64,000 bases of DNA from Octopus vulgaris (Eukaryota). Positions 4,098 through 59,963 of the stretch are shown one piece after another. How positions within the stretch are numbered: the stretch's first letter is position 1; each line of letters opens with the position of its first letter. Below the pieces are notes generated by a model. The model was not told the DNA's origin and did not search any database. It saw nothing but the letters and a program-made list of their open reading frames with translations. The stretch spans positions 121,086,001 to 121,150,000 of the forward strand of contig OX597820.1 of the NCBI GenBank assembly GCA_951406725.2. The letters are read 5' to 3'. Position numbers and translations under genes: made by a program.

Positions 4098-4207
4098 ATC
4101 TGTGTGTGTGTGTGTTTTGCAAACAGCTTGCACATGCAAGTGCCATCAGTCGAGAACTCCGCATACCGGAAGCCAGCAAGTGTATGGGATCATCTATAGA
4201 TAGATAT

Positions 4208-4622
4208 ATTTCTTTACTACCCACAAGGGGCTAAACACAGCGGGGACAAACAAGGAGAGACAAACGGATTAAGTTGATTACATCAACCCCAGTGTGTAAC
4301 TGGTACTTAATTTATCGACCCCGAAAGGATGAAAGGCAAAGTCGACCTCGGCGGAATTTTAACCCCGAACGTAACGACAGACCAAATACCTATTTCTTTA
4401 CTACCCACAAGGGGCTAAACATAGAGGGGACAAATTAAGGACAGACAAACGGATTATGTCGATTACATCAACCCCAGTGTGTAACTGGTACGTAAATTAT
4501 CGACCCCGAAAGGATGAAAGGCAAAGTCGACTTCGGCGGAATTTGAACCCAGAACGTAACGGCAGACGTAATACGGCTATGCATTTCGCCCGGCGTGCTA
4601 ACGATTCTGCCAGCTCACCGCC
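4208..4622 (-). mobile_element. tRNA-derived SINE family C, dimeric form
   Basis: Head ggcggtgagctggcagaatcgttagcacg and core gtcgactttgcctttcatcctttcggggtcga (Meta/MESC-domain-like, from memory). The second unit lacks the head. Confidence 0.9.
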
Positions 4623-6273: not shown

Positions 6274-7366
6274 TTGTAGATATATAAAAATACATACATA
6301 TGTAGGCAGAGAGGAGAAAAATAATGCGAGAGAAAGATAGACAGACAGAGGGAAATATAGAGGTAATTAGAGAGAGAGAGAGAGAGAGGTACATAGATAG
6401 AAAGGCAAATAGACATACAGACACAGTTAGGTGTTGAGAGGCGGCTTTCGAATTGCCATCCCTGTCGTGCATATCAGAATGCAGGCAGCTATCACTAAAG
6501 GGCAAACAAGTTTTTATCTGCACTTATTTCTCTCAGCTTCCATATGTAATGAGCTCGGAGAGTGCATTCATTTATGCACAAACACTGTACACACATGATG
6601 TATATACATAGATGTAGAAATATAGGAATGTGTGTGTATATATATATATGTGTTCATGGGTGTACGCTCAGAGCAGCGATCATACTTTTATGTAATGGAT
6701 TCCTTTATTTTTATGATTTTTATAATTTCTGCACACACTGACACACACACACACACGCGTTTGGTTGGGGGTGTTCTTTTACATATTCTTCCTATTGTTT
6801 TAGTTTATACTTTGAGTTAGATCTCTGTATTATACGTGTGTGCACCGACACGCAAATCTATCTATCTATCAATATGCATACATACACATATGTACATATA
6901 TATACATACACACATATTTATATAGTGAGAGACATACATACATGCACACACACATACATGCATGCACACAGCTCTGTGGCGATATTTCTGCACCAAGAAC
7001 GCTTCAAAGGTGAATAAGATGCAAGAACAGGTCTGTAATTAGATGCAGTTCAATACTTCTGCTTCTTCGGAAATCACTTCTGCTTGGATTCTACTTCGTT
7101 CGCTCCAGTTAATTCTGATCCTCCATAACAAATCTACAGTCGGTTCCTCACCCACATAAAATCTGGCACTTCCCACGAACAACAAAATGTCTTCAATCCG
7201 TGCATGATAATATTGAAAGGGGCTGAAAACGATTTTTTTTGTTGTTTTTTTTTTTATTAGGATGAATATTTCGCCCTTTATTTTTTTCTAAATGAAATCT
7301 CAAATAGAGACGAAGTTGCCTTTCAGCCTGTGGATCGGTTAAATTAAGTACAAATCAATTAGTAGC

Positions 7367-8297
7367 GTGAAATTATTCAACACCAGCAAGCCACCAAAAG
7401 TCTTGATCCTATCGCAGTATTATAAATCGTCAAAAGTCCCAGTTATATTTCTGCTCTCACAGTACCACAAAGCGATGTTGAATATAAGTAAATTAATTTG
7501 GGATCTAAAAGACCACAATAAACAGTTTAATTTAGAATGGTTGATTCTCTCAATCTCGATACCTTATGACAAAGGCAAGGAATTCTGTCTTCTCTGTAAT
7601 TTTGAAGTATTTTTCATTATTTTTTTCTAAAAGTCCCCTAGTAAACACGGTTATAGAGCGAGCATACAGATGTAAACATTGGCAAAAACACACCTTTAGT
7701 TTATATAAGTAATATCTATCATTATATATAATTTAAACATTAATTTTCTTTTTATATTTAACATACACTAAAAAAATTTTTTTTTTCCTAGTTTATAAGG
7801 TTTTATTTAATATACATATAGTCATATACTTCTCATTTATTTAACTTTTCCTTAATTTATCCCTCCTTTTTCTATAGGCTACCTCTGACATTATATCATA
7901 TAACGTTTTTTCAAACTGTATTAATAGCGTTCAGTAAATCACTATACACATCCATCATTTTCTGTTAAAATGTCTTATTGACGAGTTTCATTTCTTCACT
8001 TCCCTGAAGAGAAGATTACATTGTTTTACACCATTTTATTCCTTTGGAATAATATCAGTGATATCTTCGAAACGTGAGTAGGAAGTAAAAGAATTTGATT
8101 AACACCTCGTTAAACTCCATTTATATATTATACAAAAAATTTCACGTAAATCCGAAGTTTCTACCTTTAGAAGCAAGGTGTTACAACCTCTTGTGTGATT
8201 TTTTGCTACCCTGGTAACACTTTATCTATTTTTTCCGTGTTAATTGTTAACAAGGAAAAATACACACCGGATTCATTCTTGTTGCTTATTTTTTATT
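7367..8297 (+). mobile_element. Penelope-like element 3' remnant: GIY-YIG endonuclease C-terminus plus HHR-bearing 3' region
   Basis: SKLIWDLKDHNKQFNLEWLIL...PYDKGKEFCLLCNFE, then in a shifted frame SPLVNTVIERAYRCKHWQK. This matches the PLE pattern LSxxIWxLK..W.I...PY....CxLC..E..LN...E..C.H..K. HHR downstream. Confidence 0.75.
7998..8086 (+). ncRNA. Type I hammerhead ribozyme motif
   Basis: acttcc-CTGAAGA(8004-8010)-gaagat...atcttc-GAAA(8069-8072)-C gtga G-TA-ggaagt. Stems I and II are perfect 6-bp helices. Predicted cut after 8080. Confidence 0.88.
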
Positions 8298-8480
8298 ATA
8301 ATCACCCCGCATATTTTTATGGGTAACACCATAAAAAATTCTGGTGCATCTAAATTAAGTACCATTTTCATTTGAATCTAAATTGCTACTGAAAAAAAAT
8401 ATATATATACAGAGAGAGAGAGAGAGAGAAGCAACTTGTCTTATATCTCACAGCGAGAGATATACATTAACAGTACGGAA

Positions 8481-11625: not shown

Positions 11626-11894
11626 ACATCACATCTAATGCAACAAGATTCACCTGTGCCTCGGAAAATCTAATCTATGCCATTATATGCTTAGGGTGTG
11701 GTAATAATTATATTGGCCAAACGGGAATATCACTCCGTCGAAGTACCACTCTCTCGGAAAATATAATCTATGCCATTACATGCTTTGGGTGTGGTAATAA
11801 TTATATTGGCCAAACAGGAATATCACTCCGTCGAAGTACCACTCTCACGGAAAATATAATCTATGCCATTACATGCTTAGGGTGTGATAAATAA
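11626..11894 (+). pseudogene. Penelope-like GIY-YIG N-terminal motif, tandemly repeated 2.5 times (93-bp unit)
   Basis: FTCASENLIYAIICLGCGNNYIGQTGISLRR. Units at 11661-11753, 11754-11846 and a partial one at 11847-11893. Confidence 0.8.
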
Positions 11895-33613: not shown

Positions 33614-33863
33614 ATATATATATATATATATAATGTTTGGTAAGTTTAAGGAAAGAAGTCCTATAAAACTCATCAATTTACTTAAAACTGGAGAAGACAA
33701 GTTGTTGAAATATATAAGAGAATTTTAATTCCTGCAGACAATTATAGTTAATATCCAACACGATTTACATCTCATTCTCACAAGGATAAACATATGAATC
33801 TCCTAGATTCAATTCTTCTGGTATATTCTTTCTCAAGTTCATTGAAACGTTGTTTAAACTTCC

Positions 33864-33970
33864 TGCACTGAAGAGTACAATGATATACATAATCGAATTA
33901 ATTTAATCTGATTCAATCCGACCATGGATTTGCATTATTTTTATATCTCTGTACGAAACGATCGTCTGCA
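33864..33970 (+). ncRNA. Type I hammerhead ribozyme motif
   Basis: tgca-CTGAAGA(33868-74)-gtaca...tgtac-GAAA(33955-58)-C gatc G-TC-tgca, with a GUC triplet. It lies inside inverted arms 33632-33743 and 33961-34071. Confidence 0.88.
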
Positions 33971-34198
33971 AGAATTAAAATTCTCTTATATCTTTTAACA
34001 ACTTGTCTTCTCCATTTTAAACCAAATTAATAAGTTTTATGGGACTACATTCCATAAATTCACCATACATCATATACACGTATTACTTTCATATCTTCGC
34101 AAATTTATGCCCGTAAACTGCGAGCAAAATATGAAGAATCAGCATTAGAAATCTGTTTTGGAAACCTCCAAATTAAAGAACGAATCTATGTTCGACCT

Positions 34199-49197: not shown

Positions 49198-49614
49198 GGC
49201 AGCGAGCTGGCAGAAACGTTTGCACGCCCGGCGAAATGCATAGCCGTATTTTGTCTGCCGTTACGTTCTGAGTTCAAATTCCGCCGAGGTCGACTTTGCC
49301 TTTCATCCTTTCGGGGTCGAAAAATTAAGTACCAGTTATGCACTGGGGTCGATATAAACGACTTATTCCGTTTGTCTGTCCTTGTTTGTCCTCTCTGTGT
49401 TTAAGCCCCTTGTGGGTAGTAAAGAAATAAGTATTTCGTCTGTCGCTACGTTCTAAGTTTAAATTCCGCCTAGGTCGACTTTGCCTTTCATCCTTTCGGG
49501 GTCGATTAAATAAGTACCAGTTACGCACTGGGGTCGATGTAATCGACTTAATCCGTTTGTCTCTCCTTATTTGTCCCCTCTGTGTGTAGCCCCTTGTGGG
49601 CAGTAAAGAAATAG
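49198..49614 (+). mobile_element. SINE family C, dimeric form
   Basis: Full monomer plus a headless second unit, with the same junction as 4208-4622. Confidence 0.9.
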
Positions 49615-50740
49615 GAATTTGTACGCGATCAGTTGACCCACTAGAAAGAGTAGCCAAATCTTCCTGAAATCACATTCCCATCGTCTTAAAAAGCACCCTC
49701 TGGTTAACGTGTTTCTGAGCTTCTACGGAAATGAGACGGGTGTGATTGGAACACATTTTATCCTAAGTTCTCTCAATTCAGGTCTGATCTAGGACTTCAC
49801 TACATCAATACTTTTTAACTTTCTTCCAGTCGGATTGATTTAGATGGCAGTTATTCAGCATTCACATCAGTATTTATCAAATAGTCTCCCGAAATTAAAG
49901 CTTTAATTCACCTCATCCACCACAGCTTTCCTTTTTGATACAATTCCACAGAAGACATCGAATAAGCCTTTGTTAATTTACAGAGATTTCATGGAAGGTA
50001 TCACATCAATTCTCTTGAATTTACTAAAGTAAAGAATCTTTGAGAATTTGGTGTCCTGCCAACGGAGTGTTGGGAGAATAAAAAGGTTCGCTTCTTTGAT
50101 TCTTTGTCAAATATTTTTCTAAATGTTCTTTAAAGGGAAAAATTTAATGATGCTGAGTAAAAAGGAAGAGTAAAACACAGAGGAAACGGAATTAACTAAA
50201 GGCACAATATATAATATTCAATGGAGGGAAAGGGAGAGAGAGGGCGGAGATATGTGGAGGAATAGAGATGAAGAGAGAGGGAGAACAGAGAGAGAAATGG
50301 AGAAAGACATAGAGGGAAGAGTTAGAGAGAATATGTCTGAGGGAAAAGATATATTGCATGCGAAAGTACAAAAATTGAGTTGACCGAGAAAGACGAGACA
50401 GTGAGAGGAAAAGAATGAAAAAGTGAATAGAATAAACAATTTAATCAAATAAGAAAAACAGAACAAAATTAAGGAGAGAAAAAGATAAGAGAGGAAAGGG
50501 AAGGAAAAACAGAGAGAAAAGAGACAGACGGACAGACAAAGACAGAATGTATGTGTTGCAGGTGAAAATGAAACAAAGAAAATGATGTAAATGGAACACA
50601 AAATATGAACGGCGAAAACAATGAACCGAAATATAGAAACCCCGGCGAGACGGAACCGAAATTATACGTGTGTCTGCGTGCGTGCTTGTGTATACATATT
50701 GGCATATACAGGTGCTTACAGTTATCAAGTATTCACCCTG

Positions 50741-56783: not shown

Positions 56784-58058
56784 TTGAAAGAGTGGTAAGA
56801 TCAAGGGTAGCTACCTTCCTAGAGATCCACAAACTCCTAAATGCAAATCAGCATGGCTTTCGCTGTGGTAGGGACTGTCTAATACACTTCTTACACCTCA
56901 TCGATGATATACTTTGGAACAGGTTCGAACTCTGATGTCATATATCTTGACTGCAGCAAAACGTTCGACATGGTTGAACATAATATCTTACTCTCAAAAT
57001 TGGCAAATTTTGGAATCCGTGGAAAACTCCTATACTAGATCGAGTATTTCTTAGCGAAGAAGATACATGTTGTGTTCGATGGAGTCGACTCAAGCCCAGC
57101 AAAAGTCACCACTGGTGTCCCTCAGAGGACTGTCTTGGGCCCGCTTTGCTTTATAATCTACATAAACGACCTTTCCAGCGTTGTAAAACATTGCAAAGTG
57201 AAAATATTCGCTAATGACTCTAAACTCCAGAAAATCATCAATGAAGAAGACCGAACTCAACTCAAGTCTAATCTACATGCGTCGAGTCAATGGGCAGACA
57301 AAAATAAAATGCAACTAAACGAGGGAAAAATTTGAGCTGATGCGTTTTGGAAAAAATCACTAAGCTAAAACAACCGTACTCTCTTCCTTTAGGGGAACCG
57401 CTCACGGCATCTAATAATATCAGAGACCTGGGTGTAATTGTTGATAATAATCTCAGTTTGAGTGCCCACATCAGCAATAAGGTCGATATAGCTCGTAGGG
57501 TGTGCTCCTGGGTCTTAATCCTCCGTTCCAGAGAACAAGGTGTCATCATTCCACACTTCTTCTCCTTTGTACGGCCACACCTCGAATACTGCTGCCCCTT
57601 GTGGTCTCCCCATACCAAACAAAGCATCTCGAAAATTGAATCACTCTATTCTCTCCAGTGCCGCCGCGAGCGGTACATCATTTATACGATGTGGAGAATG
57701 TACCGCCAGCATTGCTCAAACTACTTGAACATTAGCTTCAAGGTTCATTCAAGGCTGGGACCACGGGCCATAATCCCCTGCCCAATTCAAGATCACAACA
57801 TATAGGTACACTGCGACACAATTTCTTATCCTCAACAGGCCATGCCCTGTTTAACATTGTCCGAAAACTGATCAAAGAGGAAAAGGATCCCATCACCTTT
57901 AAACGGAGTCTGGACAGATTTCTTCAAGGAATGCGAGATAAGCTTCTTATACCTGTATAAAACTCACTCAATAAGACTTGACTTCAAAAGAATTTAGATA
58001 ATCCTATCAGGTGGTTCTATTATGTTAGACATGGCCTCGATCAATCTTTGGCCGAAAC
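56781..58058 (+). pseudogene. 5'-truncated CR1-group LINE reverse transcriptase, flanked by (TA)n
   Basis: QHGFRCGRDC, IYLDCSKTFDMV, GVPQRTVLGPLCFIIYINDL, IFANDSKL, RDLGVIVDNNL and VRPHLEYCCPLWSP. Contains stops and frameshifts. Confidence 0.92.
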
Positions 58059-58102
58059 ATATATATATATATATATAAGTTCAGCAAAAATTTAGATTCA
58101 AA

Positions 58103-58195
58103 TAATTGGCTGATGAGTGCTCAGCATTTTAAAACTGTTGTAATACTTACAACATTTAATAAAATGATGTAGTACGAAACGATCGTACCGAATTA
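58103..58195 (+). ncRNA. Type I hammerhead ribozyme motif
   Basis: taattgg-CTGATGA(58110-16)-gtgct cagcatttta...taaaatgatg t agtac-GAAA(58176-79)-C gatc G-TA-ccgaatta. Predicted cut after 58187. Confidence 0.88.
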
Positions 58196-58342
58196 CCGGA
58201 GTCATTCTTGTTGCTTATTTTGATCATATATATATATATATATATATGGGGGGCTGTGTGGCAACAAGCCCCTTTACCAACCACATGCTTCCGGGTTCAG
58301 TCCCACTGTGAGGCAACTTTGTCAAGTGTCATTTACTATAAC

Positions 58343-59725: not shown

Positions 59726-59963
59726 ATATTCTGTTGTATCTGGGGAGAGTCATTCTCTTTTAGTGCCTTATTATTTAACACACTCACCGGTAAAATTTCC
59801 ACTTATTTCTTATTTTCTTGAGTCAAAACTATTGAAAAGGTTGCAAGACCGAACGAAAATTTTAGAAAATAAAAAATAAGAAATAAGTGGTAATTTTACC
59901 GGTGAGTGTGTTAAATAATAAGGCACTAAAAGAGAATGACTCTCCCCAGACACAACAGAATAT
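59726..59963. repeat. Near-perfect foldback with ~90-bp arms
   Basis: 59726-59816 is the reverse complement of 59873-59963, with two visible mismatches. Confidence 0.9.

What the first reader, a model, noticed from the sequence alone, without database searches (positions are those of the whole stretch)
58077..58226. A ~150-bp ribozyme-only insert between two TA runs, sharing its 3' end with a Penelope-like element
Seen: between (TA)n at 58059-58076 and 58227-58247 there is little except an intact-looking HHR followed by accggagtcattcttgttgcttatttt (58195-58221). This matches accggattcattcttgttgcttatttt (8266-8292), the end of the GIY-YIG-encoding remnant, although the two HHRs have unrelated stems. 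Inference: a minimal parasite made of a ribozyme plus an RT-recognition tail and mobilised by the PLE, or an extreme 5' truncation of a related PLE.
Basis: partly seen in the sequence, partly recalled or inferred. Interest (0 to 1): 0.75.

Follow-up and report, generated by a model that had tools for sequence, protein, structure and literature searches.

The report
Two-armed stump of Penelope-like retroelement
This 150-base insert is two back-to-back end fragments of a common Penelope-like jumping gene, not an independent ribozyme parasite; two-armed copies of its family nearly always join one short-ended and one long-ended arm, which likely records both cut DNA strands starting to copy the element's RNA at two fixed points.

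Summary
The hammerhead, the TA runs and the 27-bp match are real; the retrozyme reading is refuted. The insert is two arms of one Hydra-type Penelope-like family (A; at least 409-651 exact motif copies): an inverted 27-nt piece of the family's far 3' end (58077-58103) joined by 2 nt of microhomology to a 123-nt forward piece (58102-58224). Family 5' ends form a ladder into a GIY-YIG/RT ORF; 3 of 100 end near this copy's boundary, and its junction is unique. The 'shared tail' at 8266 is not the end of the GIY-YIG remnant (family B; 39 of 39 other copies stop at 8264-8267) but a second family-A fragment fused to it once. What remains of interest: family A has two fixed 3' ends 99 nt apart, and 71 of 72 two-armed insertions use one of each (family B: 19 of 19; tail about 150 nt). 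Arms also often stop just 3' of the predicted ribozyme cut. The one-sided tail is published qualitatively, and this scan has noted the one-tail rule before on other DNA. Interest is low.

The parts
58059..58077 (.). Left (TA)n target run; its last TATA is shared with the family's distal end motif
   Evidence: junction read against copy L004
58077..58103 (-). Inverted arm, 27 nt: the distal (D) 3' end of family A, family positions about +214 to +188 (0 = first C of the hammerhead core)
   Evidence: 27 of 27 identical to the reverse complement of the end of D-ending copies such as L004, L006, L009
58102..58103 (.). 2-nt microhomology joining the two arms head to head
   Evidence: this junction occurs once in the genome, the only other match has a different, longer arm
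58102..58224 (+). Forward arm, 123 nt: 5'-truncated pseudo-LTR of family A from -8 to the proximal (P) 3' end at +114
   Evidence: 38 of 44 matches start at query base 26, at 96-99% identity; nearest held copies differ by 0.8%
58104..58194 (+). Type I hammerhead ribozyme motif: core 58110-58116, stem II 58117-58175, GAAA 58176-58179, palindromic helix III, predicted cut after 58187
   Evidence: cleavage not tested
58226..58247 (.). Right (TA)n target run
8266..8392 (+). Second family-A fragment: a D-ending arm whose 5' end (+85) lies 7 nt 3' of the predicted ribozyme cut, fused to the end of family B through 2 nt of microhomology
   Evidence: nearest held copies 1.7% divergent versus 6.1% for the family-B body
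7343..8267 (+). Family B remnant: broken Hydra-type endonuclease end, 3' UTR, own hammerhead (core at 8004), P site near 8128-8132, D end at 8267
33617..34198 (.). Family C two-armed insertion: inverted P-ending arm (about 33633-33742) plus forward arm with hammerhead (core at 33868) running on almost to the family's D end
   Evidence: read by eye

Best explanation
The insert is a very short two-armed insertion of a Hydra-type Penelope-like retroelement family into a (TA)n run, likely made when both cut strands of the target primed reverse transcription of the element's RNA, one at each of two fixed sites 99 nt apart. Shown: family membership, the ladder of 5' ends, the coding parent (pseudo-LTR with hammerhead, 99-nt tail, ORF with RT and C-terminal endonuclease, 3' UTR), two fixed 3' ends that each sit on a TTATAAT motif, and the one-P-one-D pairing. 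Inferred: the endonuclease nicks both strands in (TA)n; each TA-ended 3'-OH pairs with one UUAUA site in the RNA; here the D-primed copy stopped after 27 nt and the P-primed copy after 123 nt; the two ends were joined by microhomology. The hammerhead is a passenger of the pseudo-LTR. A lone copy would cleave poorly because helix III is built for dimers (predicted). The 8266-8392 piece is likely a later family-A insertion at the TA-rich end of an older family-B copy.
For: 409 and 651 exact genome matches to two family motifs, reversed controls 0. In the first 100 hits of the hammerhead-half motif, 5' ends spread from +58 to about -2450 with no peak at -8 (3 of 100 within -13..-3). Continuous RT-EN-UTR-HHR in L071 and L072, with L056 similar. 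HHR/tail directly upstream of the ORF start in 10 of the 10 loci that reach the ORF leader, of 20 fetched. 93 protein relatives of 670-824 aa, one with a sub-threshold RVT_1 hit; endonuclease region aligns to the best relative at E 5e-17. 3' ends 65 P and 35 D of 100. Two-armed events: 37 of 38 mixed in the sample not selected on end type (binomial against 0.5, p 1.4e-10), 71 of 72 in both samples; family B 21 hits, 19 events, all mixed. Contigs of four other public runs continue at 58102 into family upstream sequence, not into this copy's inverted arm. PAc extends both target strands and starts at two internal RNA sites in vitro (PMC11167929).
Against: No intact ORF was seen in the 20 long regions read, so a currently active parent is not shown. 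One D-D event exists (L103/L218), and 3 of 53 family-B hits end at neither site. 21 of about 95 P-class ends carry a G where read-through copies have T, which simple pairing at the primer does not explain. (TA)n hides any target-site duplication, and no empty site was found. Priming on one RNA versus two, and priming versus endonuclease trimming at P, are not separated by sequence. Clade assignment rests on motifs, not on a tree.
Confidence: 0.88

Rival explanations
1. Independent retrozyme-like minimal parasite (ribozyme plus RT-recognition tail) mobilised by the 8-kb PLE family.
For: Intact-looking hammerhead in a 150-nt insert; hundreds of short near-identical copies; animal retrozymes derive from PLE pseudo-LTRs (bioRxiv 10.64898/2026.07.22.740005).
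Against: No constant 5' boundary; junction unique; the only same-strand neighbours were two local duplications that include flanks or TA (L182, L274); family B does not share the tail; the sequence is collinear with a coding element.
Confidence: 0.02
2. Same identity, other mechanism: one cDNA folds back on a short palindrome and copies itself, and the endonuclease trims one arm to give the one-sided tail.
For: 19 of 41 two-armed events in the tail sample have inner ends within 6 nt of each other (permutation mean 2.9, maximum 10 in 10,000), many centred on 4-6 nt palindromes. Palindromic junctions were read as self-priming in PMC3846280, and EN-mediated resolution was proposed in PMC8557442.
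Against: It cannot make this insert: the arms share no sequence (+214..+188 and +114..-8). In 28 of 71 mixed events the P arm runs more than 6 nt deeper than the D arm, and in 5 of those the D arm stops before reaching P.
Confidence: 0.07
3. The two arms are two separate insertions, or a later deletion, that happened to meet in one TA run.
For: Nested insertion at TA ends does occur (likely origin of the A-on-B fusion at 8266).
Against: No TA between the arms, a 2-nt microhomology join, and strict P+D pairing across 71 of 72 events; independent insertions would give at most half mixed pairs.
Confidence: 0.03

Closest known systems
Hydra clade of C-terminal EN+ Penelope-like elements (Craig et al. 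2021, PMC8557442; passages, sections 11 and 15, supplementary file 1 part 2 read), including Hydra-1_Obim
   Same: DKT, CxCx5C linker, CxxC and CxH around the endonuclease end, no CCHH seen, canonical type I hammerhead near the 3' end, (TA)n insertion, heavy 5' truncation, inverted 5' copy.
   Different: Family A has RWI instead of RWK, an asparagine-rich insert, about 3.6-4 kb (my estimate from L067, L071, L060, L069) rather than under 3 kb, a long hammerhead stem II, and a hammerhead unlike the one listed for Hydra-1_Obim. It has a clear pseudo-LTR and a 99-nt tail.
Inverted pLTR with one-sided 30-40 bp tail of EN+ PLEs (Arkhipova et al. 2013, PMC3846280, passages read; Craig et al. 2021)
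   Same: Head-to-head arms, tail on one arm only, palindromes and microhomology at the junction, N-rich ORF inserts.
   Different: Tails here are about 99 (A), 150 (B) and 130 (C) nt; both ends lie in the 5' leader, about 50 nt or more before the ATG in family A; pairing is counted (71 of 72), not described as optional.
PAc (Poseidon, Anolis) in vitro mechanism (Frangieh et al. 2024, PMC11167929; parts 1-2 of 4 read)
   Same: Two internal initiation sites delimiting the tail; both target strands cut and extended; AT-rich target; predicted dimer.
   Different: PAc starts in an AC-rich loop not homologous to the target and inside the ORF; here both sites are TA-rich motifs able to pair with a (TA)n primer. 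The parts read do not report one site per arm, and they found no reads ending at the ribozyme cut.
Metazoan non-LTR retrozymes (Cervera and de la Pena 2020, PMC7229834, passages; Li et al. 2026, 10.64898/2026.07.22.740005, parts 1-2 of 5)
   Same: Type I hammerhead with palindromic helix III, small non-coding size, PLE origin.
   Different: No tandem units, no fixed monomer, collinear with a coding PLE.

Membership tests
Non-LTR retrozyme | Tandem repeats with a hammerhead in each unit | tested here: not met
   No arrays among the first 100 hits of two motifs; two local duplications only
Non-LTR retrozyme | Constant monomer boundaries, independent of a coding element | tested here: not met
   Ladder of 5' ends into the ORF; junction unique
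Non-LTR retrozyme | Expressed as linear and circular monomer RNA | not testable with these tools
   Only assembled contigs of runs guessed to be RNA were served
EN+ Penelope-like element | Single ORF with RT and C-terminal GIY-YIG-type endonuclease | tested here: met
   L071 carries both with a stop between; relatives of 670-824 aa hold both regions. Pfam itself did not hit the family's own pieces
EN+ Penelope-like element | Pseudo-LTR from partial tandem, with hammerhead | tested here: met
   10 of 10 loci reaching the ORF leader have the end module directly upstream
EN+ Penelope-like element | 5' truncation, inverted 5' copy, one-sided tail | tested here: met
   tail is 99 nt rather than 30-40
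Hydra clade | DKT, CxCx5C, CxxC and CxH motifs; no CCHH | tested here: met
   Read in translations of L071, L067, L022, L060
Hydra clade | RWK motif | tested here: inconclusive
   RWI in most family-A translations, RWM and RWK in one divergent copy each; relative P0063 has RWK
Hydra clade | (TA)n insertion and canonical hammerhead | tested here: met
   Flanks printed
Hydra clade | RT phylogeny groups with named Hydra elements | not tested
   No named reference proteins were available as tool sequences
Type I hammerhead ribozyme | Conserved core and three helices | tested here: met
   below the Rfam gathering score because of the long stem II insert
Type I hammerhead ribozyme | Self-cleavage | not testable with these tools
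   Needs in vitro assay; only indirect genomic hint

The most novel reading that the evidence does not exclude
Hydra-type PLEs insert by twin priming on a single RNA: the two nicked (TA)n strands pair with two UUAUA sites 100-150 nt apart, so every two-armed insertion gets one short and one long end, and part of the templates begin at the hammerhead cut, so the genome holds a class of ribozyme-less stumps whose 5' edge is set by in vivo self-cleavage. That would give PLE hammerheads a demonstrated role in the copying cycle.
Probability: 0.35. Interest if true: 0.55.

Novelty: new member of a known kind. Interest (0 to 1): 0.22.

Why it matters
The insert itself is ordinary debris. Its family statistics bear on two questions the cited papers call open: how PLEs make inverted ends with a one-sided tail, and what the hammerhead does. 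The long tails (99-150 nt) make the two sites easy to separate experimentally, and non-overlapping arms such as this one rule out simple fold-back for at least some insertions. It is also a caution: fragments of different PLE families pile up at the same TA runs and can look like shared tails.

Tried and rejected
Whole-window Rfam scan: the 150 rows shown were microsatellite-driven miRNA hits, no hammerhead among them. RNA: no RNA holder listed; contigs of four runs guessed to be RNA cover only the end module and cannot show strand, ends or circles; no empty site found in four other runs because the repeats were skipped. Pfam gave nothing on the family's own ORF pieces, PDB sequence search gave 0, the protein atlas was not available. 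An internally deleted non-autonomous subfamily (suggested by L017, L019, L029 sharing a boundary near -453) was rejected: that stretch is part of a long-UTR subfamily, and only L029 shows a deletion. The family-C copy at 33617 first looked like a same-end pair but its forward arm runs on toward the D end. The script for family-C partner arms was confounded by other repeats and gave no usable count. Coordinates are off by up to 1 nt for some references; one search recomputed them.

Full report
Observation. The stretch 58077-58226 lies between AT runs at 58059-58077 and 58226-58247. It holds a type I hammerhead motif: core 58110-58116, a 59-nt stem II arm, GAAA 58176-58179, a palindromic helix III and triplet 58185-58187. 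Rfam Hammerhead_1 matches at E 0.012 but below its gathering score; 2 of 200 shuffles fold as well. Among 53 family copies, pairs are kept by double changes in stem I (GC 32, AT 12), stem II (TA 37, CG 8, TG 8) and the loop-3 palindrome (AT 22, GC 21, 8 others); these are subfamily differences, so few independent events. A two-strand fold forms the intermolecular helix III (-48.2 versus -20.7 kcal/mol per monomer), the dimer design described in PMC4209133 (part 1 of 4 read). The 27-nt match to 8266-8292 is real (26 of 27). Family positions below count from the first C of the core.

What the insert is. A genome search gave 1605 first-look candidates; 38 of the 44 listed matches start at query base 26 and only the window and L002 include base 1. 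Bases 1-27 are the reverse complement of a family end lying 100 nt beyond the 'tail'. So the insert is an inverted 27-nt arm plus a forward 123-nt arm joined by 2 nt of microhomology. A gapped pattern for such a junction found two places, this one and one with a different arm length. Contigs of four other public runs continue at 58102 into ordinary family upstream sequence.

The ladder and the parent. Two exact motifs occur 409 and 651 times, reversed controls 0. For the first 100 hits of the hammerhead-half motif, 5' ends fall 13 at +20..+60, 11 at -2..+19, 3 at -14..-3, 12 at -50..-15, 6 at -100..-51, 25 at -250..-101, 14 at -500..-251, 10 at -1000..-501 and 6 beyond (4 cut by the locus edge). 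Long copies run through a 3' UTR into an endonuclease and an RT region (L071, L072, L056). Ten of the 20 loci fetched with the ORF start reach its leader, and all ten have the hammerhead/tail module directly upstream, a pseudo-LTR. The RT part has 93 relatives of 670-824 aa, one with a sub-threshold RVT_1 hit. Motifs DKT, CxCx5C, CxxC, CxH and (TA)n insertion fit the Hydra clade as defined in PMC8557442 section 11; RWK is RWI here. No intact ORF was seen in the 20 regions. The genome is probably a cephalopod's (my inference from its repeats and one label).

The 'shared tail'. The GIY-YIG remnant near 7.3-8.3 kb is another family (B). Its 39 other top matches stop at 8264-8267, and the 19 fetched go on into simple repeats with no family-A sequence. 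8266-8392 aligns along its length to family A's tail, and none of 39 other top places bridges the junction. The A piece is 1.7% from its nearest held copy and the B body 6.1% (175 versus 33 copies compared, so only a hint), which favours a later A insertion at B's TA-rich end over a template switch.

Two fixed ends. Family-A copies end at P (about +113) in 65 and at D (about +212) in 35 of 100 hits. Both sites are followed by TTATAAT in read-through copies. Among two-armed events, 37 of 38 in the sample not selected on end type join one P and one D arm (1 D-D, 0 P-P; independent choice allows at most half mixed; p 1.4e-10), and 71 of 72 when the tail-motif sample (97 distinct hits from the first 100 listed) is added. 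Family B, 53 of 55 motif hits analysed: 21 hits (19 events) mixed, none alike, 3 ending at neither site, 29 with no partner found within the references' reach. Family C shows two ends by eye (about 12 and 16 of 30 loci). The window's insert is a D arm plus a P arm.

Inner ends. D arms stop at +74..+95 at 0.013 per base at risk, against 0.004 at +96..+114, 0.002 at 0..+73 and 0.007 at -45..-1; single D arms end 8 times at +76..+95 and once at 0..+75 (bins chosen after seeing the data). Among 41 distinct places with a TA run just upstream, read by eye, 27 single arms start at +78..+92, 6 at +62..+77 and 8 are two-armed (the gap limit favours the nearer class). The predicted cut is between +77 and +78. 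This fits run-off from a cleaved RNA, but also stalling at the ribozyme's structure and joining at nearby palindromes or TA steps; several junctions reach 1-12 nt past the cut, so those templates were uncut. I put in vivo cleavage as the cause at about 40%.

Mechanism. Likely: the endonuclease nicks both strands of (TA)n; each end pairs with one UUAUA site and primes; the cDNAs stop early and are joined head to head. One RNA has one P and one D site, which would explain the pairing; 19 of 41 events have inner ends within 6 nt (permutation mean 2.9) and 5 of 71 D arms stop just short of P. Two-strand extension and two internal starts are shown for PAc in vitro (PMC11167929). Simple fold-back cannot give this insert, whose arms share no sequence.

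Novelty. Inverted arms, one-sided 30-40 bp tails and junction palindromes are in print (PMC3846280, PMC8557442). Five literature searches showed no paper counting one-site-per-arm pairing or reporting 100-150 nt tails, but the library lacks most subscription papers, I read the papers only in part, and I saw no supplements except part of one file of PMC8557442. I reached the pairing rule before consulting the scan's notes; those notes report it on other DNA in this and other genomes. Verdict: a new family of a known clade, ordinary insert, interest 0.22.

Noticed in passing
window 33617-34198: Third hammerhead-bearing PLE-type family (C; 500 first-look candidates), two-armed, with two family ends about 130 nt apart
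   Followed up: partly
window 7343-8267: Family B (5147 first-look candidates) has its own two ends about 150 nt apart with the same one-of-each pairing
   Followed up: yes
family A, P-class ends: About a quarter of P ends have G where read-through copies have T, one base inside the junction; unexplained
   Followed up: no
L071, L056, L060, L061 (between RT and endonuclease): In-frame asparagine-rich (AAT)n insert, like the N-rich inserts of Adineta PLEs in PMC3846280
   Followed up: no
G000:C23:35084320-35188428: Nine copies of one short family-A stump spaced kilobases apart, probably a segmental tandem amplification
   Followed up: no
G000:C29:29566000-29690000 (L073, L074, L296-L302): Cluster of at least six near-identical inverted family-A insertions about 9 kb apart
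   Followed up: no
L068:5529-6449: ORF of yet another Hydra-type PLE family (32% identical endonuclease) beside a family-A copy
   Followed up: partly
window 57200-58058: Decayed stretch that reads like the 3' end of a LINE-type element; the target TA run is its flank (by eye, not tested)
   Followed up: no
window 11660-11890: 2.5 tandem copies of a 93-bp unit that looks like a GIY-YIG coding fragment
   Followed up: no
window 4207-4574 and 49246-49620: Head-to-tail dimers of a 185-bp repeat, probably a SINE
   Followed up: no
window 59751-59938: Long near-perfect inverted repeat, MITE-like
   Followed up: no
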